Source of the DNA: Candidatus Bathyarchaeum sp.
GTDB lineage: Archaea; Thermoproteota; Bathyarchaeia; Bathyarchaeales; Bathyarchaeaceae
Direction: 5' to 3'
Length of the DNA stretch: 64,000 nucleotides
NCBI GenBank assembly: GCA_026014565.1
Contig: JAOZIB010000043.1
Location: 5,854 to 69,853, forward strand
Shown here piece after piece: positions 24,844 to 60,418 of the stretch. The notes under the pieces are model-generated. The model was not told where the DNA came from. It worked only from the letters and a program-made list of their open reading frames with translations, and did no database searches. A program made the translations under genes and the position numbers. Numbering within the stretch: the first letter of the stretch is position 1; the number at the start of each line of letters is the position of its first letter.

Positions 24844-24908
24844 GTTTGTTTTTCGCGGTGTGGAAACCTTATCTGTTCATTAAATAAAATACATTCGAGG
24901 AGCAGGTA

Positions 24909-25838
24909 TTGGCTGATGCCCTGATTGGCACTGCGGTTCCCATTTTGTTGTTGATGGGAATTGGGTTTTTGTCCAGAAAATTTGATTTACTAAAATCGGG
25001 GGACGAACGGGTACTCAGCTCGTATGTTTACTATTTTGCGTTGCCTGCCCGATTTATTGTCGACATGGCACAAACAACCTTTGTTACAGAAACACTAGTT
25101 TTCATCTTTGCGGGGATTATTCCCATTTTTTTGGTCGTAGCAATTTTTAGTTTACTTTATGTGACAGTTAGGTTTTCAAGAAACACGTTTTATCTTCTCA
25201 CATTAAGCACAATTTTCGGAAACACAGCATTTTTTGGGATTCCTTTTGTTACTTTTGCGTTTCCGTCAACCCAAACTGAACAAACTGCTACCCTCTCAGC
25301 TGCAACAATTGGAATTGCAGCCATTGCGGTGTCTGTTGCATTGTTGGAGTTTTATCGTCTGGAAAAAATTTCAAAAATACAGGGTTTAAAGTATGTTGGT
25401 AGCCGGTTACTGAAAAATCCGTTGATAGTTTCAATTTTTGTTGGCATCATAATTTCTTTAGTTGGAATAGAGATTCCCTTACCTCTGGCTACGGTTTTAG
25501 ATATGATAGGAGGCACCACCTCTGCAGTTGCAATTTTTATGTTGGGGGCGTTTTTGTATGGAAAAAAATACACCAATCTAAAAGTTGGATTTGGATTGAG
25601 CCTTTTGCGGATAATTTTGTTGCCGTTGATTGCTTTGGCTACTTTGATGCTGTTTGAGTTGCCCATAATGGAAGAATCAGTAATTGTGCTAATGCACGCT
25701 ATGCCCGTTGCGGTCGCATTATCTGTTTTGAGTGAGCGTTACAATTTCCATCGAGAAACAATTGCTTCCCTGACATTGGTTTCCTCTGTGGGGGCAATCG
25801 TTTATCTTAACCTTTGGTTAGCCCTGCTAGGTGTTTAA
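24909..25838 (+). CDS. AEC (auxin efflux carrier) family membrane transporter
   Basis: 309 aa, about 10 TM helices arranged 5+5. TTG start. Confidence 0.75.
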   Translation: MADALIGTAVPILLLMGIGFLSRKFDLLKSGDERVLSSYVYYFALPARFIVDMAQTTFVTETLVFIFAGIIPIFLVVAIFSLLYVTVRFSRNTFYLLTLSTIFGNTAFFGIPFVTFAFPSTQTEQTATLSAATIGIAAIAVSVALLEFYRLEKISKIQGLKYVGSRLLKNPLIVSIFVGIIISLVGIEIPLPLATVLDMIGGTTSAVAIFMLGAFLYGKKYTNLKVGFGLSLLRIILLPLIALATLMLFELPIMEESVIVLMHAMPVAVALSVLSERYNFHRETIASLTLVSSVGAIVYLNLWLALLGV

Positions 25839-51722: not shown

Positions 51723-52136
51723 TCAAGGGTTATCTTGAAGTTTTTGTTTTCTTTTTTTGTATTCATTGTACATGTTTTCGACTTGTCTTCTGCTGACGTA
51801 TCCTTTGTGAGGTCTAAACCCGCCTTTGAATCCATGGGGAATGTGCATTAATTCGTGAAGTACTGTGCGTTCTTTGTCTTCTTGGCTTAGTTTGTCATAG
51901 CGTTCGCTTAAAACTTCAATAACATATGCAGGAGGCAGCCCAAGGGCTTGTTGCCAAATTTTTCCGAATCCATGAATCCTAGCAATTATGCGTCTGGATT
52001 TTGAGCCTTCACTGCGAAAACAGTGAACGTCTTCTGGAACTACATGGGTGAACTGTAGTTGTTGAATGATTTCGTCTGCCAGTTTTTTGACATCTGGCGC
52101 TTCGTAGTACTTCAGTGGCAATTTTGTTTCACCCAA
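51723..52136 (-). CDS. predicted zinc metallopeptidase (HExxH, SprT/COG4900-like)
   Basis: HELMHIPHGFKGGFRPH near the C-terminus, ARIHGFGKIWQQAL upstream. Start uncertain: the ORF is open to 52301, which would overlap the divergent gene at 52222. A TTG at 52136 gives the ~138-aa size usual for this family. Confidence 0.6.
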   Translation of the reverse strand: MGETKLPLKYYEAPDVKKLADEIIQQLQFTHVVPEDVHCFRSEGSKSRRIIARIHGFGKIWQQALGLPPAYVIEVLSERYDKLSQEDKERTVLHELMHIPHGFKGGFRPHKGYVSRRQVENMYNEYKKRKQKLQDNP

Positions 52137-52221
52137 ACTAGCTGAGCAAATAAGGTTAATGTTTAATATAAATTGGTAACATTTCACTACTAGAGGAGTA
52201 AAATTTGGGGAAAAGTACAAC

Positions 52222-52455
52222 ATGCTATTAAAAGAGGCAATTGTTGAAGCCCTTAAATCTCTTGGAGGTTCCGGTTCGATATCAGAAGTCACTGCATACA
52301 TTCATGCAAAATATGGACGAGAACGATGGAAAGATATCGGCACAGAAATGGCGGATATGTGTCCTGAAAGTGAATCATCACTGACACCAGTAAGTGAAAG
52401 ATTTCTAAAGAGAATTGGACGAAGAGAATACGTTTTAGTTGGCTTCAATCCTTAA
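52222..52455 (+). CDS. small HARE-HTH / Mrr-N-like winged-helix protein
   Basis: MLLKEAIVEALKSLGGSGSISEVTAYIHAKYG...EYVLVG matches the N-terminal wHTH of Mrr-type proteins. Stand-alone, 77 aa. Confidence 0.55.
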   Translation: MLLKEAIVEALKSLGGSGSISEVTAYIHAKYGRERWKDIGTEMADMCPESESSLTPVSERFLKRIGRREYVLVGFNP

Positions 52456-52539
52456 TTATCATCAACATGAAATTTCATTCTATAACAAACTTCCAGAAAT
52501 ATTAAATCACGTTTTGGTGTATGAGATAAGGAAGGAAAT

Positions 52540-52630
52540 GGTATCAAGCTCATGAAGGAATGAGGTACTCCCCTACCTCATACGGTATTTTAGCTGTGAA
52601 ACCTTTTGTTATTTTATACTTGTTAAGGCA
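52540..52630 (+). repeat. hairpin-bearing unit A (candidate sRNA)
   Basis: ATGAGGTA-CTCCCC-TACCTCAT perfect 8-bp hairpin at 52560-52581. Ends CTTGTTAAGGCA. T5 run at 52654-52658. Confidence 0.5.
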
Positions 52631-52711
52631 GAATCATTATCGGTGCTCAACTGTTTTTATTTCCTAAAACAGGGAAGATGAAAATGAAAAACAGTAGAAG
52701 CAGGTGATTGG

Positions 52712-52737
52712 ACTGAAGGTGCTTCCCTGCCCACTAC
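52712..52737 (+). repeat. degenerate middle copy of the unit core
   Basis: ACTGAAGG-TGCTTCCCTGCCCACTAC aligns with CATGAAGG...TACTCCCCTACCTCATAC of unit A (12 of 18 core positions identical). T5 run at 52746-52750. Confidence 0.35.
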
Positions 52738-52870
52738 AAAACAGCTTTTTCTTGATTTGGATATTCTATAATTACTAATTCAAAATCAATATTTGTAAAT
52801 AAGTAAACAAAAATCGAGTGAAAATGTCGAAAGAAAGCAGGAATACGTAGTGACACTGAATAGGAGTGAA

Positions 52871-52951
52871 GTTATATCAAAGTGAGGGACTACCCGACCT
52901 CATTCCACATTTGCATATTGAAGTGTTTTATTATTTGAGACTTGTTAAGCA
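52871..52951 (+). repeat. hairpin-bearing unit B (candidate sRNA)
   Basis: TGAGG-GACTACCCGA-CCTCA hairpin at 52883-52902. The tail aligns with unit A at about two thirds identity and ends CTTGTTAAGCA. Confidence 0.5.
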
Positions 52952-52993
52952 ATTACCAGTAGGTCAACTAACTAAAATCATTCAACTCGAAAG

Positions 52994-53005
52994 TTTTAAT
53001 ATATA
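52994..53005 (+). promoter_or_regulatory. TATA-like box for the aIF2-gamma gene
   Basis: TTTTAATATATA centred ~40 nt upstream of the ATG at 53042. Confidence 0.35.
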
Positions 53006-53041
53006 GTCTATTTTCTATGTTGCTAAGGATTATTGATTACC

Positions 53042-54313
53042 ATGGCATCAACTGATACACCTAAACGCAAGAAAGCTTTGGCGTTACCTAAACAACCCGA
53101 GGTCAACATTGGCACTATTGGTCACGTAGACCATGGAAAAACCACTCTGGTTGAAGCAATAACAGGAGTATGGGCAGCAAAACACAGCGAAGAACTCCGA
53201 CGAGGCATCACCATCAAACTAGGATATGCAGATGCCCCGATCTTCAAATGCCCGAAATGCGATGAACCCCAATGCTACACGTCAAACACTACTTGTTCCA
53301 ATTGTGGCTCAGACGCAGAATTTGTAAGAGCCATTAGCTTTGTTGATGCCCCAGGACATGAAGCCCTCATGGCAACTATGCTTTCAGGAGCAACAGTCAT
53401 GGACGGCGCATTACTAATAATCGCAGCCAACGAAAAATGTCCCCAACCCCAAACCAGAGAACACCTCGCAGCCATTGAACTGGCCGGAATAACAAACATC
53501 ATTATCGTTCAAAACAAAATAGACATCGTAGACCAAAAAAAAGCCATGGAAAGCTACAAAGAAATACAAGACTTTGTAAAAGGCACAGTCGCAGAAGGAA
53601 AACCAATCATTCCTGTTTCTGCCCAGCACATGGCAAACGTTGATGCTGTTTTACAAGCAATAGAAAAATTCATACCAACACCCAAACGTGACCCAACCAA
53701 ACCCCCAAGAATGTTTGTTGTGCGCTCCTTTGACGTTAACAAACCTGGAGACACAATCGACGAAATCGACGGCGGAGTAATTGGAGGGAGCATTTTCCAA
53801 GGAACATTCAAAGTAGGCGACGAAGTAGAAATCCGCCCAGGAATCAAGGTAAACAAACAAGGAAAAACATTCTACGAGCCAATCTTCACCCAGATCACAA
53901 GCTTAAGTGCAGGAGGAAAACAAGTCGACGAAGCCCAAAGCGGAGGATTAGTAGGAATAGGAACATACCTAGACCCTTCAATGACCAAAGCTGACGGTCT
54001 TACTGGAAACATGGTGGGAAAACCTGATTTGTTACCTGCTACACGGTCTGAGATTGCTGTGGGAACTCATCTTTTGAAGCGTGCCATTGGAACTAAAGAG
54101 CTAGTTGAAGTTTCTAACATAATCAAGGGTGAAAAACTGTTGTTGGATGTTGGAACCACTATCACTATTGGAGTTGTATCCTCCTCAAAGAAAGACAGCG
54201 CTAAACTTACCCTTGCCCGACCAATCTGTGCCGAAGACGGAGCAAGAGCAGCCATCAGCAGAAAAATTGGCGGGCGATGGCGCCTGATTGGGTATGGAAT
54301 AATCCAAAGCTAG
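53042..54313 (+). CDS. eif2g: translation initiation factor aIF2 gamma subunit
   Basis: G1 GHVDHGKTTL, G3 DAPGHE, G4 NKID. Zinc-ribbon insertion CPKC...CSNCG. Domains II/III follow. Confidence 0.93.
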   Translation: MASTDTPKRKKALALPKQPEVNIGTIGHVDHGKTTLVEAITGVWAAKHSEELRRGITIKLGYADAPIFKCPKCDEPQCYTSNTTCSNCGSDAEFVRAISFVDAPGHEALMATMLSGATVMDGALLIIAANEKCPQPQTREHLAAIELAGITNIIIVQNKIDIVDQKKAMESYKEIQDFVKGTVAEGKPIIPVSAQHMANVDAVLQAIEKFIPTPKRDPTKPPRMFVVRSFDVNKPGDTIDEIDGGVIGGSIFQGTFKVGDEVEIRPGIKVNKQGKTFYEPIFTQITSLSAGGKQVDEAQSGGLVGIGTYLDPSMTKADGLTGNMVGKPDLLPATRSEIAVGTHLLKRAIGTKELVEVSNIIKGEKLLLDVGTTITIGVVSSSKKDSAKLTLARPICAEDGARAAISRKIGGRWRLIGYGIIQS

Positions 54314-58918: not shown

Positions 58919-59326
58919 TTACTTGAGCGGCACATACATTGATGACCGGGACGCACCGATACCTGGTTGACCGTGTCGCACAGGTTTGTTGGTTATGGCA
59001 AATTCGCCTAGGTAACATCCCATCATTTCGGGGGTGATGTCAACGGGTATGAATTCTTTTCCGTTGTGAATCAACAAGGTAGCACCCACCATTTCAGGGA
59101 GCACTATCATGTCACGAGCGTGAGTTTTAACAGACGCTTTTGCGTCACCTTTTTGATTAAGTTTGGCAACTCGGATGTTTTCTAGAAGCGTCCTTTGTGT
59201 TTGACTAAGCCCACGTTGCAGACTTCGGCGTTGCCGGGAAGGAAGCAACTTTATGAATTCGTCCATGGACATGCGTTGCAGTTCCTCTATTGAATGACCG
59301 CGATACATGAATATTTTCTTCGGCAT
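58919..59326 (-). CDS. rps19: 30S ribosomal protein uS19 (S19p/S15e)
   Basis: [33 protein letters not shown] ... HNGKEF.PV.I.PEM.G.YLGEFA.T.KPV.HG.PGIGA. Confidence 0.9.
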
Positions 59327-59329
59327 ATT

Positions 59330-59356
59330 TTACGCACTCACCCCCTTTTTGCGTAA
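59330..59356 (-). promoter_or_regulatory. hairpin presenting the uS19 Shine-Dalgarno sequence in its loop
   Basis: Minus strand reads TTACGCA-AAAAGGGGGTGAG-TGCGTAA-AAT-ATG, with 7-bp perfect arms. Confidence 0.3.
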
Positions 59357-59479
59357 CTGGATTTATTAAACATTTCTAAGAAGCAACACTAAACAGCAGT
59401 TCCTTAGGCGCACAAACATATAGGGATACTAATAGGAATTCTATGATGTAAACAACCTTTTTACAGAAAAATAAAACCC

Positions 59480-60418
59480 CTAAAAAAACACCTGTTTGCT
59501 TTTCGGTTTTGGGGGATCAGAAACAACCCACGAACCATCACAAACCTCAGAATTTAAGTTAAAGTTTTCTCGACAACAGCCAAACTTCAAACCTTGTCTC
59601 TCCACCAAATCTTTTGCTTGTTTCATCAAACTGAAACGAAAAGGTTCAGGCAAATAGGTTGAACCCGAAATTCGCTCGCCATTACTGAAATAATGCGGTT
59701 TTAGTTTTTTTGTCACATCAGGAAAAACTGCACTAAAACGTTTCCAATTGTCAGGTTTAACCTTATAAGTTGAACACGTAACGTGGGAAACATCTAATTC
59801 TGCAACTGCTTTTGCAATTGAACTTAAATCGTCATTAAGAAAGGGGATAATTGGATCGATCCTAACGGTAGTTGAAATGTTACGGTCAACAAGTTTTTTT
59901 ATTGCAGATAATCGCTTTGATGAGACCGGAGCCCCAGGTTCAAGCTTTTTACAAAGTGAATCATCCAAAGTTAAAATAGTTACAGAAACCACACAAGGAA
60001 TTGTTTGTAGAATGTCGATGTCTCGCGTTACAAGGTCAGATTTTGTGATTATCTGAAGCTTGCAATTGTTGTTGGCCAATATTTGTAGACATTTACGGGT
60101 CAAACCAAGTTTTTGTTCAAGCCGAGGGTAAGGATCAGAAGAGTTAGACATAGAAACCAACTGTCCATCGAGCATGGCGGCTTCTCGGTTTAGTCGGGTT
60201 AATAAGTTCTTTTTTGGTCGACATTCATGAAAATGCGGGATATACGAAGATGCATAACAATACAAACAGCCATGATCACATCCAGTGTAAGGATTAAAAG
60301 TTAATTTAGGTGGACACGTGCACATTGGAGATTTCCAGGGGTCAAAGGCAGTTAGCAACATGATATCTGACCCAACAAAACAGTTAGGGAATAAGAAGCT
60401 TATTTGAGATTCGTCCAC
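59480..60418 (-). CDS. radical SAM protein (SplB/COG1533-like 'DNA repair photolyase' family)
   Basis: NPYTGCDHGCLYCYASSY radical SAM cluster motif. The start could instead be MLLTAFDPW (60358). Confidence 0.7.
   Translation of the reverse strand: MDESQISFLFPNCFVGSDIMLLTAFDPWKSPMCTCPPKLTFNPYTGCDHGCLYCYASSYIPHFHECRPKKNLLTRLNREAAMLDGQLVSMSNSSDPYPRLEQKLGLTRKCLQILANNNCKLQIITKSDLVTRDIDILQTIPCVVSVTILTLDDSLCKKLEPGAPVSSKRLSAIKKLVDRNISTTVRIDPIIPFLNDDLSSIAKAVAELDVSHVTCSTYKVKPDNWKRFSAVFPDVTKKLKPHYFSNGERISGSTYLPEPFRFSLMKQAKDLVERQGLKFGCCRENFNLNSEVCDGSWVVSDPPKPKSKQVFF

What the first reader, a model, noticed from the sequence alone, without database searches (positions are those of the whole stretch)
52456..53041. 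Tandem array of three units with a conserved C-rich core in a 577-bp ORF-free gap just upstream of aIF2-gamma
No ORF of 60 aa or more exists in any frame between 52456 and 53032.

The repeats:
- Two ~80-90 nt segments (52540-52630 and 52871-52951) align by eye at roughly two thirds identity. Both end in CTTGTTAAG(G)CA.
- Each carries a hairpin with a C-rich loop at the same relative position. Unit A: ATGAGGTA-CTCCCC-TACCTCAT, 8 bp perfect. Unit B: TGAGG-GACTACCCGA-CCTCA.
- A degenerate copy of the core lies midway at 52712-52737 (TGCTTCCCTGCCCACTAC versus TACTCCCCTACCTCATAC). It lacks the A/B-type hairpin; only a weak 5-bp GCAGG/CCTGC pairing is possible there.
- The three cores are therefore ~155 and ~167 bp apart, all in the same orientation.

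Signs of separate transcription:
- A TATA-like AAATATTAAAT (52497-52507) sits ~25-30 nt before unit A.
- T5 runs follow unit A (52654-52658) and the middle unit (52746-52750).
- aIF2-gamma has its own TATA-like box at 52994-53005.
- The units therefore look like separate small transcripts or protein-binding modules, not its 5' UTR.

In unit A, ATGAG (52560-52564) can pair either with upstream CTCAT (52549-52553) or with the downstream arm, giving alternative folds.

I do not recognise the motif as any known RNA family. From my recollection of the conserved archaeal gene order, S6e and aIF2-gamma are usually adjacent. Here 1.8 kb of accessory material lies between them: a 94-aa orphan, a metallopeptidase, a HARE-HTH protein and this array.
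Basis: partly seen in the sequence, partly recalled or inferred. Interest (0 to 1): 0.65.

Follow-up and report, generated by a model that had tools for sequence, protein, structure and literature searches.

The report
Tandem hairpin-RNA modules upstream of aIF2-gamma
The gene-free gap in front of the translation factor aIF2-gamma holds three diverged tandem copies of a module found only in one Bathyarchaeum lineage, whose conserved feature is a 16-bp RNA hairpin readable only on the opposite strand, so it is most likely a small new family of non-coding RNA genes of unknown function.

Summary
The repeat is real. Three homologous units of about 125-130 nt lie at 52515-52640, 52667-52794 and 52843-52963, and no ORF of 60 aa or more lies in the gap.

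The conserved feature is a 16-bp long-range helix (unit A: 52519-52534 with 52568-52583).

Across ten unit copies from six organisms the helix has compensatory changes. Nearly all its non-Watson-Crick cells are A·C on the + strand, which is G·U on the - strand (25 against 2). RNAalifold gives -12.0 kcal/mol on the - strand and -2.7 on the + strand.

On the - strand each hairpin follows a conserved dyad, a TATA-like box and a fixed 18-19 nt spacer.

The module occurs only in one Bathyarchaeum subclade, upstream of aIF2-gamma, in one to three copies. One diverged copy lies upstream of uS19 in one contig.

It matches no Rfam family and fails the H/ACA, C/D and mobile-element tests. No copy was found elsewhere in the window, in 83 related and pattern-matched loci, or in phage and plasmid collections.

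Best reading: a lineage-specific array of small hairpin-RNA genes, transcribed divergently from aIF2-gamma. Transcription and function are untested. Interest is moderate to low.

The parts
52478..52657 (-). Unit A, the whole conserved block: promoter-like module, hairpin and conserved tail.
   Evidence: It is 85-86% identical to L001 and L002, against 58-69% identity at four-fold sites of aIF2-gamma. nhmmer E = 3e-32. CM R1 scores 118 bits on the minus strand.
52519..52583 (-). Hairpin A: 16-bp helix (52519-52534 with 52568-52583) and a 33-nt C/U-rich loop on the minus strand.
   Evidence: On the minus strand it has 13 Watson-Crick and 3 G·U pairs. On the plus strand the same three cells are A·C mismatches. 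It is the minus-strand MFE structure. Covariation is shown.
52560..52581 (.). It competes with the long helix for the same 3' arm.
   Evidence: It is present in the sequence. It is 60-65% paired across units with no covariation (helix 6), and is absent from M-type and L017-type units.
52587..52637 (-). Promoter-like module of unit A, read on the minus strand. Dyad TTGTT-N8-ATCAT lies at 52620-52637, the TATA-like GTATAAAATA at 52619-52610, and the initiator-like CTAAAAT at 52593-52587.
   Evidence: The motifs and an 18-19 nt TATA-to-CT(A/G) spacing are conserved in 10 of the 12 units aligned, although the spacer sequences differ; the two very diverged L079 units do not align there. A crude home-made BRE/TATA matrix scores it only 5.5 bits, which is not significant.
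52660..52800 (-). Unit M (middle unit). Its hairpin pairs 52667-52677 with 52722-52732: 8 Watson-Crick pairs plus 3 G·U on the minus strand. Its promoter-like module has TATA-like 52772-52763 and dyad 52772-52789.
   Evidence: nhmmer E = 1e-18. CM R1 scores 69 bits on the minus strand. It has orthologous units in L001 and L002.
52815..52965 (-). Unit B, a degenerate copy. It has a weak long helix (52829-52844 with 52891-52906), a local hairpin (TGAGG 52883-87 with CCTCA 52898-902), and dyad TTGTT-N8-ACCAG at 52942-52959.
   Evidence: The weak helix has 7 Watson-Crick pairs and 5 G·U out of 16 on the minus strand. CM R1 scores 37 bits on the minus strand. nhmmer E = 2e-22. It is 76% identical to the L001 B unit.
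52988..53032 (+). The proximal promoter and short leader of aIF2-gamma itself (CGAAAG-TTTTAATATATA). This is not part of the repeat family.
   Evidence: It is 90-93% identical in L001 and L002, and the core is invariant. It is the best hit of the home-made promoter matrix in the gap, at 9.8 bits.

Best explanation
The gap holds three tandem, diverged copies of a small gene-like module that is read on the minus strand, divergently from aIF2-gamma.

Each module consists of:
- an operator-like dyad (TTGAT-N8-AACAA on the minus strand) abutting a TATA-like box (ATAAAATA);
- a fixed 18-19 nt spacer to an initiator-like CT(A/G);
- 3-9 nt further on, a hairpin of about 62-80 nt with a 16-bp stem rich in G·U pairs and a 30-47 nt pyrimidine-rich loop (conserved motif CAUUCCUUCA in the A lineage).

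Shown: the homology of the units, their restriction to one lineage, and the helix with its covariation and strand asymmetry.

Inferred: each module is transcribed into a small non-coding hairpin RNA. The array grew from one to two to three copies by recent tandem duplication. Unit A is the best-kept copy and unit B is decaying.

Speculative: the pyrimidine-rich loop and 3' arm pair with purine-rich sequences in trans, such as Shine-Dalgarno-like sites, or bind a protein.
For: Homology of the three units:
- nhmmer and CM hits are.

Same module in relatives:
- It lies at the same position in L001, L058 and L064 (3 units), L002 Ca. Bathyarchaeum tardum (2), L078 (1), L079 (2) and the L017, L057, L061, L063 and L082 type (1).

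Helix and strand:
- On the minus strand 90% of cells pair, against 41-58% when the partner is slid. Five pairs show double changes, and the covariation score is 0.346 with 0 of 500 shuffles reaching it.
- On the plus strand only 76% of cells pair and the covariation score is 0.150.
- RNAalifold gives -12.0 kcal/mol on the minus strand and -2.7 on the plus strand.
- Over ten units the cells are 119 Watson-Crick, 25 G·U, 2 A·C and 14 other on the minus strand.
- Most G·U pairs arose by T-to-C changes in the plus-strand pyrimidine arm. That runs against the AT mutational bias, while the opposite class is almost absent.

Compensatory examples:
- GAGG/CCTC changes to GAAA/TTTC in the L061 second copy and to GAAG/CTTC in L079.
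- T-A changes to C-G in L017.
- L079 keeps 16- and 17-bp hairpins (one perfect, one 94% complementary) although the loops, and one pair of arms, are unrelated in sequence.

Other support:
- The promoter-module geometry is constant in 10 of the 12 units aligned while loop length varies.
- Unit A is far better conserved than synonymous sites.
Against: - There are no expression data, so transcription, the start site and the 3' end are all inferred.
- Single-sequence folding energies are not exceptional (z about -1.8 for unit A and positive for M and B).
- A BRE/TATA matrix learned from this window does not score the putative minus-strand promoters significantly (5.5 bits).
- No clear oligo-T terminator follows hairpin A.
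- The sample is phylogenetically shallow: about six organisms, with paralogues that may undergo gene conversion. The covariation counts therefore overstate the number of independent events; I count roughly 8-10.
- Other intergenic regions are also 75-87% conserved between these genomes.
- No convincing target was found. aIF2-gamma's own 5' region ranks 35th to 52nd of 54 for the three whole-unit RNAs (23rd for unit A's loop and 3' arm alone).
Confidence: 0.55

Rival explanations
1. The hairpins are leader or attenuator elements of a longer minus-strand transcript, not free-standing small RNAs. One candidate is a distal-promoter mRNA isoform of the divergent metallopeptidase gene. Another is an upstream antisense transcript fired from the bidirectional aIF2-gamma promoter. 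In either case the hairpins would act in cis, by stabilising, pausing or terminating the transcript.
For: - The strand evidence is the same as for the best explanation.
- In L001, L017 and L078 the metallopeptidase gene lies directly downstream on the minus strand.
- In L079 a 65-aa hydrophobic minus-strand ORF follows the hairpins.
- A promoter-like block (TTATAGAA with TTCTGGAA) follows hairpin A.
- The aIF2-gamma TATA also scores on the minus strand, at 6.6 bits.
Against: - The gene downstream on the minus strand is not constant. It is the metallopeptidase in some genomes, the antisense of a 77-aa ORF in the window and L002, the antisense of a 168-aa gene at the L061 second site, and a different ORF in L079.
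- The metallopeptidase has its own proximal TATA in L001 (sequence).
- The metallopeptidase exists without any unit in L004, L011, L012, L014, L016 and L053.
Confidence: 0.17
2. The units work at the DNA level. They would be tandemly duplicated protein-binding or promoter modules that tune transcription of aIF2-gamma (and of uS19 in L061). The dyad TTGTT-N8-ATCAA and the long inverted repeat would be operator sites.
For: - The only constant neighbour of the units is the promoter of a translation gene on the plus strand. This holds at the L061 second site and in the rearranged L079.
- The dyad is conserved with fixed internal spacing.
- The 3' part of unit A resembles the real aIF2-gamma promoter and 5' end in the window and L001 (p about 0.01).
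Against: - A DNA site gives no reason for a 25-to-2 excess of one wobble class, or for whole-arm compensatory turnover.
- The distance from the dyad to the plus-strand TATA varies from 17 to about 95 nt. Its distance to the minus-strand TATA is fixed (sequences).
- Arms of 16 bp separated by 23-47 nt are atypical for operator sites.
- The similarity to the real promoter is not significant for units M and B or for L002 and L017.
Confidence: 0.13
3. This is the first reader's model: plus-strand small transcripts. Each would start at an upstream TATA-like box, contain the hairpin, and end at the T-run that follows it.
For: - TTCTATAA (52478-85) is invariant in the window, L001, L002 and L017, and lies about 25 nt before the block.
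- A T4 run (ATTTTAG) follows the hairpin in A-type, L017-type and L079 units.
- A T5 run marks the end of the conserved block (52654-58).
Against: - On the plus strand the helix carries 1-4 A·C mismatches per unit, at positions that differ between units.
- The plus-strand consensus fold scores only -2.7 kcal/mol.
- The plus-strand MFE fold shows no covariation: 65% of cells pair and shuffles do as well.
- The sequence upstream of TTCTATAA is neither purine-rich nor conserved.
Confidence: 0.08
4. The units are a decaying miniature mobile or palindromic repeat (MITE/REP-like) with no present function. It would have landed upstream of aIF2-gamma and been amplified locally.
For: - A diverged copy sits at a second site in one contig only (L061:3325-3470).
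- Copy number varies from 0 to 3 between close relatives.
- Unit B is degenerating.
Against: - There are no further copies in the 64-kb window, even with filters off.
- There are none in about 660 kb of related and viral loci.
- The metagenome pattern scan found only the same locus, and nothing turned up in phages or plasmids.
- No target-site duplication or terminal inverted repeats could be defined.
- Unit A is under constraint, and hairpins are maintained by compensation.
Confidence: 0.07

Closest known systems
Archaeal intergenic small non-coding RNA genes (for example the sRNAs of Methanosarcina mazei or Haloferax volcanii; named from my own knowledge, not tested here)
   Same: - Each unit looks like a short stand-alone gene in an intergenic region.
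- It has its own BRE/TATA-type promoter and a stable stem-loop.
- It has a pyrimidine-rich single-stranded segment that could mask purine-rich ribosome-binding sites.
   Different: - There is no sequence or Rfam relation to any described family.
- The units form a tandem array of diverged paralogues.
- Expression and targets are unknown.
Archaeal H/ACA guide sRNAs
   Same: - It is a single hairpin of about 65-75 nt.
- In A-type and L017-type units the stem is followed by ACA on the minus strand.
   Different: - The stem is continuous over 16 bp, with no pseudouridylation pocket.
- There is no conserved K-turn or K-loop.
- ACA is absent in M units, the L061 second copy and L079.
Tandem antitoxin RNA repeats of type III toxin-antitoxin systems (ToxI)
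   Same: It is a tandem array of structured RNA repeats placed upstream of a gene.
   Different: - The units are 150-175 nt with their own promoters, not 36-nt processed repeats.
- The gene downstream on the same strand is not constant.
- No endoribonuclease toxin is present.
Tandemly repeated promoter units upstream of haloarchaeal rRNA operons (from my own knowledge)
   Same: These are direct repeats of about 150 bp that carry promoter-like boxes upstream of a highly expressed translation-apparatus gene.
   Different: - Here the promoter geometry and the RNA helix point away from the gene.
- aIF2-gamma keeps a separate, invariant proximal promoter.

Membership tests
Any Rfam 15 family | Covariance-model score at or above the family's gathering threshold. 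| tested here: not met
   No hits at gathering thresholds in the whole window. In E-value mode only generic hairpin, miRNA-precursor or snoRNA models appear, at 12-20 bits against thresholds of 44-117.
Archaeal H/ACA sRNA | An internal loop (pseudouridylation pocket) between a lower and an upper stem. | tested here: not met
   The consensus helix is 16 continuous base pairs. The putative upper stem of unit A (CUCAU/AUGAG) is not kept in L001, L002 or L017.
Archaeal H/ACA sRNA | A K-turn or K-loop (tandem G·A) in the upper stem, and an ACA box 3' of the hairpin. | tested here: not met
   The L017-type loop has no GA dinucleotide pair motif. ACA follows the stem only in A, L017 and L078 units; M units, the L061 second copy (AAA) and L079 (ACU) lack it.
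Archaeal C/D box sRNA | C (RUGAUGA) and D (CUGA) boxes with a terminal stem or K-turn. | tested here: not met
   No conserved C or D boxes appear on either strand of the unit alignments. The only snoRNA-like Rfam hits have E = 2.9-9.4.
MITE / REP-like mobile repeat | Many dispersed copies with terminal inverted repeats and target-site duplications. | tested here: not met
   Copies occur at one locus, plus one second site in one contig. The CM with filters off finds nothing else in 64 kb, nor in the other loci. No target-site duplication could be defined. Complete genomes could not be scanned.
cis-regulatory 5' leader of aIF2-gamma | Lies in the transcribed 5' UTR on the gene's strand, with a conserved structure on that strand. 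| tested here: not met
   An invariant proximal BRE/TATA lies about 30-40 nt before the start codon. The plus-strand structure has no support.
Type III toxin-antitoxin RNA array | Short tandem repeats directly upstream of, and co-oriented with, an endoribonuclease toxin gene. | tested here: not met
   The downstream co-oriented gene varies or is absent. The metallopeptidase occurs without units in many relatives.
Archaeal replication origin (ORB repeats) | Inverted ORB elements flanking an AT-rich unwinding element, next to orc1/cdc6, with a skew shift. | tested here: inconclusive
   The units are direct repeats, not inverted ones, and show no resemblance to ORB elements. Cumulative GC skew rises smoothly through 48-57 kb. 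No Orc1/Cdc6 domain is found in the seven neighbouring genes scanned. The rest of the window was not annotated.
Stand-alone archaeal sRNA gene (generic kind) | Own promoter, a discrete transcript, and a conserved structure on the transcribed strand. | tested here: inconclusive
   The structure and strand are supported. The promoter-like module is conserved with fixed geometry but is not significant with a crude matrix. The transcript cannot be tested with these tools.

The most novel reading that the evidence does not exclude
The array encodes a new class of archaeal riboregulator placed next to translation-apparatus genes. Each unit would be a regulator-controlled small hairpin RNA whose long C/U-rich loop and 3' arm act as a decoy or mask for purine-rich Shine-Dalgarno-type sequences, or for a purine-binding translation factor. 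The competing short and long helices of unit A would act as a switch that exposes or hides that segment. Copy number (0-3) would tune the dose between close species.
Probability: 0.08. Interest if true: 0.65.

Novelty: new member of a known kind. Interest (0 to 1): 0.36.

Why it matters
Almost nothing is known about non-coding RNAs in Bathyarchaeia, a very abundant sediment lineage with only one enrichment culture.

This is a structurally supported, strand-resolved candidate sRNA family. It has a clear promoter-like module, varies in copy number between close relatives, and sits next to translation genes. That gives a concrete target for the first transcript mapping in Ca. Bathyarchaeum tardum.

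It is also a useful caution. The hairpin that catches the eye on the gene's strand is not the conserved structure.

If the RNAs prove to be untranscribed, or the family stays confined to a handful of genomes, the finding is a local curiosity.

Tried and rejected
- **Plus-strand extended MFE fold of unit A** (5' region pairing with the TATA-like 3' region). No covariation: 65% of cells pair and shuffles do as well.
- **Coding potential.** The 35-aa ORF in unit A has an in-frame TAA in L001. The mini-ORFs after the AAGGAAGGAAATG motif differ in every unit.
- **Array as duplications of the aIF2-gamma promoter and 5' end.** Significant only for unit A in the window and L001 (p about 0.01), not for M, B, L002, L017 or L061. 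Left as a side note.
- **Mimicry of the 16S rRNA 3' end** (h45 and anti-SD, with the 16S sequence taken from memory). Local alignment p = 0.02-0.05 before correction for multiple tests, and the matching segment is not conserved in orthologous units. Rejected.
- **Trans-target search with RNAduplex against 54 gene starts.** aIF2-gamma ranks 35th to 52nd for the three whole-unit RNAs and 23rd for unit A's loop plus 3' arm alone. One strong hit, unit M against the gene at 24909, involves a non-conserved loop segment.
- **The loop motif TGAAGGAATG.** Not enriched in the window.
- **Home-made BRE/TATA matrix.** It recovers the real aIF2-gamma promoter but does not separate the unit boxes from background.
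- **Viral, phage and plasmid searches.** Chance matches only, or nothing.
- **Literature searches on Bathyarchaeia sRNAs.** Nothing relevant was found.
- **Insertion boundaries of the L061 second copy.** The flanks do not align with L017.

Full report
**What is in the sequence**

The 586-nt gap between the 77-aa ORF (ends 52455) and aIF2-gamma (TTG 53033 or ATG 42) has no ORF longer than 46 aa.

It covers 67 nt at 72% identity with an offset of 322 nt. The core motif occurs twice, against 0.05 expected.

A profile built from the units recovers three copies in the window:

| Unit | Coordinates | nhmmer E-value |
|---|---|---|
| A | 52515-52640 | 3e-32 |
| M | 52667-52794 | 1e-18 |
| B | 52843-52963 | 2e-22 |

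The 'degenerate middle core' is therefore a full unit. Tandem Repeats Finder misses the array because the copies are too diverged. Rfam finds nothing on either strand.

**Where else it occurs**

The aIF2-gamma protein places the window in Bathyarchaeum. It is 95% identical to MAG Spart_084 (L001) and 92% identical to Ca. Bathyarchaeum tardum (L002).

The gene order S6e, 94-aa ORF, PhageMetallopep-family gene (minus strand), aIF2-gamma is general in the genus. In many members the metallopeptidase start lies only 55-110 nt from aIF2-gamma, and no unit is present there (L004, L011, L012, L014, L016, L053; also L080, L081 and L083).

Units are found only in two sub-lineages, always just upstream of aIF2-gamma and in the same orientation:

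| Copies | Loci |
|---|---|
| 3 | window; L001, L058, L064 |
| 2 | L002; L079 |
| 1 | L078; the L017, L057, L061, L063, L082 type |

One contig (L061) has an extra diverged copy immediately upstream of the strongly conserved uS19 promoter. That copy is absent at this site in seven other genomes, including this window.

No other copy was found in any of the following:
- the window, even with CM filters off;
- about 660 kb of fetched loci;
- a metagenome-wide pattern scan, which returned only this locus plus three chance hits;
- viral contigs, phages and plasmids.

**The conserved structure and its strand**

What all A-, M- and L017-type units share is a long-range 16-bp helix. In unit A it pairs GTATGAGATAAGGAAG (52519-34) with CTCCCCTACCTCATAC (52568-83). 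In unit M it pairs CAGGGAAG with CTTCCCTG, plus three further pairs.

On the plus strand every unit carries one to four A·C mismatches, at positions that differ between units. On the minus strand those same cells are G·U pairs.

Over ten units the minus-strand cells are 119 Watson-Crick, 25 G·U, 2 A·C and 14 other. Most G·U pairs arose by T-to-C changes in the plus-strand pyrimidine arm. That direction runs against the AT mutational bias, whereas the mutationally favoured opposite class is almost absent. Strand-blind DNA-level constraint therefore does not explain the pattern.

| Measure | Minus strand | Plus strand |
|---|---|---|
| RNAalifold consensus | -12.0 kcal/mol, 14 pairs | -2.7 kcal/mol, 8 pairs |
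| Cells paired | 90% | 76% |
| Covariation score | 0.346 | 0.150 |

On the minus strand, slid controls pair only 41-58% of cells, five pairs show double changes, and no shuffle of 500 reaches the observed score.

Double compensations:
- GAGG/CCTC changes to GAAA/TTTC in the L061 second copy.
- GAGG/CCTC changes to GAAG/CTTC in L079.
- T-A changes to C-G in L017.

L079 keeps 16- and 17-bp hairpins, one perfect and one 94% complementary. Its loops, and one whole pair of arms, have no detectable sequence similarity to the window.

Caveat: the sample is about six organisms plus paralogues. I count roughly 8-10 independent events, not 25.

**The rest of the module**

Read on the minus strand, each hairpin is preceded by a conserved block, AATATTGATTTTGAATTAACAAG-TATAAAATA. 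It contains a dyad TTGAT-N8-AACAA that abuts a TATA-like box.

A spacer follows whose sequence differs between lineages but whose length is fixed at 18-19 nt. Next comes CT(A/G), and 3-9 nt later the stem begins. Loop length, by contrast, varies from 23 to 47 nt.

The A-rich, BRE-like flank lies on the correct side for minus-strand initiation. The distance from the dyad to the plus-strand aIF2-gamma or uS19 TATA varies from 17 to about 95 nt. The dyad therefore belongs with the minus-strand box.

This geometry is my main argument for separate promoters, but it is an inference. A crude BRE/TATA matrix learned from this window recovers the real aIF2-gamma promoter (9.8 bits) and gives the unit boxes only about 5.5 bits, which is background level.

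**Constraint**

Four-fold degenerate sites of aIF2-gamma are 58.5% identical to L001 and 68.6% identical to L002.

Unit A (52478-52657) is 85-86% identical to both. Unit M is 84% and 75% identical. Unit B is 76% identical to L001.

Some other intergenic regions are similarly conserved, and the semi-global method has a noise floor near 65-70%. Only unit A is clearly constrained. Unit B looks like a decaying copy: 7 Watson-Crick pairs and 5 G·U out of 16, and a CM score of 37 bits.

**What it most likely is**

The best reading is a lineage-specific family of small hairpin-RNA genes, transcribed divergently from aIF2-gamma and expanded by recent tandem duplication from one to two to three copies.

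The RNA would be about 70-110 nt. It would have a G-rich 5' arm, a long C/U-rich loop (CAUUCCUUCA is conserved across the A lineage, L078 and L017) and a C/U-rich 3' arm.

How it acts is unknown. A pyrimidine-rich RNA next to translation genes suggests masking of purine-rich ribosome-binding sites, or protein sequestration. However, aIF2-gamma's own leader is not a good partner: it ranks 35th to 52nd of 54 for the three whole-unit RNAs and 23rd for unit A's loop plus 3' arm. The one strong predicted duplex, unit M against the gene start at 24909, uses a non-conserved loop segment.

The main rival that keeps the same strand is that the hairpins sit in a longer minus-strand transcript, either a distal metallopeptidase leader or promoter-upstream antisense RNA. 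Against it, the gene downstream on the minus strand is not constant.

DNA-level operator arrays, plus-strand sRNAs and a dead mobile repeat are each disfavoured by specific tests. These are listed under rival explanations and membership tests.

**Comparison with known kinds**

It is not a member of any Rfam family.

- It fails H/ACA criteria: no pocket, no K-turn, and ACA is not conserved.
- It fails C/D criteria: no boxes.
- It fails the 5'-leader criterion: wrong strand, and it lies upstream of an invariant proximal promoter.
- It fails the type III antitoxin-array pattern: no constant co-oriented toxin gene.
- It fails the MITE pattern: no dispersed copies and no target-site duplication.

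It resembles ordinary archaeal intergenic sRNA genes in kind. The tandem paralogous arrangement and the operator-like dyad are its distinctive points.

**Verdict**

These are separate structured modules rather than a 5' UTR, but they lie on the opposite strand and have a different helix.

This is a candidate new sRNA family with a narrow distribution. Its function is unknown and transcription is unverified. Interest is moderate to low unless expression and a role in translation control are demonstrated.

Noticed in passing
L061:3325-3470: A diverged full copy of the unit (CM 87 bits) sits about 35 nt upstream of the strongly conserved uS19 promoter (TTAGAAATGTTTAATAAATCC), in the same orientation relative to the gene. 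It is absent at that site in L017, L057, L063, L007, L008, L016 and this window (59326-59700, minus strand).
   Followed up: partly
window 52697-52716 (minus-strand RNA of unit M) against window 24874-24933: The loop of unit M is complementary over about 19 bp, with one bulge, to the Shine-Dalgarno site and TTG start of the gene at 24909-25838. RNAduplex gives -39.9, about the 5th-6th best of 4264 windows. The loop segment is not conserved in the L001 and L002 M units, so this is probably chance.
   Followed up: partly
window 51723-52301 (-) and 52222-52455 (+): The 192-aa metallopeptidase ORF is over-extended at its 5' end. Orthologues start about 45-57 codons later (136 aa in L001, 146 aa in L017), so the apparent 80-nt overlap with the 77-aa ORF is not real. 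The 77-aa 'HARE-HTH' ORF has no Pfam hit at E <= 0.01 and is present only in the window and L002.
   Followed up: partly
window 52575-52665 against 52976-53075: The 3' part of unit A (TATTTTATACTTGTTAAGGCAGAATCATTATCGGTGCTCAACTG) resembles the real aIF2-gamma TSS region, leader and first codons (TATTTTCTATGTTGCTAAGGATTATTGATTACCATGGCATCAACTG). The similarity has p about 0.01 in the window and L001 and is not significant for other units or genomes. It may be a trace of how the array arose.
   Followed up: partly
window 52478-52507: The block TTCTATAA-N6-TTCCAGAA-N4-TTAAAT at the left edge of unit A is conserved in the window, L001, L002 and L017 whichever gene lies to its left. Read on the minus strand it looks like a further promoter-type module (GGAAnTTnnTTATAGAA) with no hairpin of its own.
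   Followed up: no
L079:1971-3001: In this close relative (aIF2-gamma 92% identical) the upstream context is rearranged, with a PAS histidine kinase 1 kb away. A 65-aa hydrophobic minus-strand ORF (2340-2537) follows the two hairpin units. One hairpin (2642-2657 with 2681-2696) is a perfect 16-bp repeat with arms unrelated in sequence to the other units.
   Followed up: partly
window 52430-52516 (-): A weak Rfam hit to a C/D-box snoRNA model (plasmodium_snoR28, 20 bits, E = 2.9) overlaps the stop codon of the 77-aa ORF and contains UGAUGA. It is far below the gathering score and I treated it as noise.
   Followed up: no
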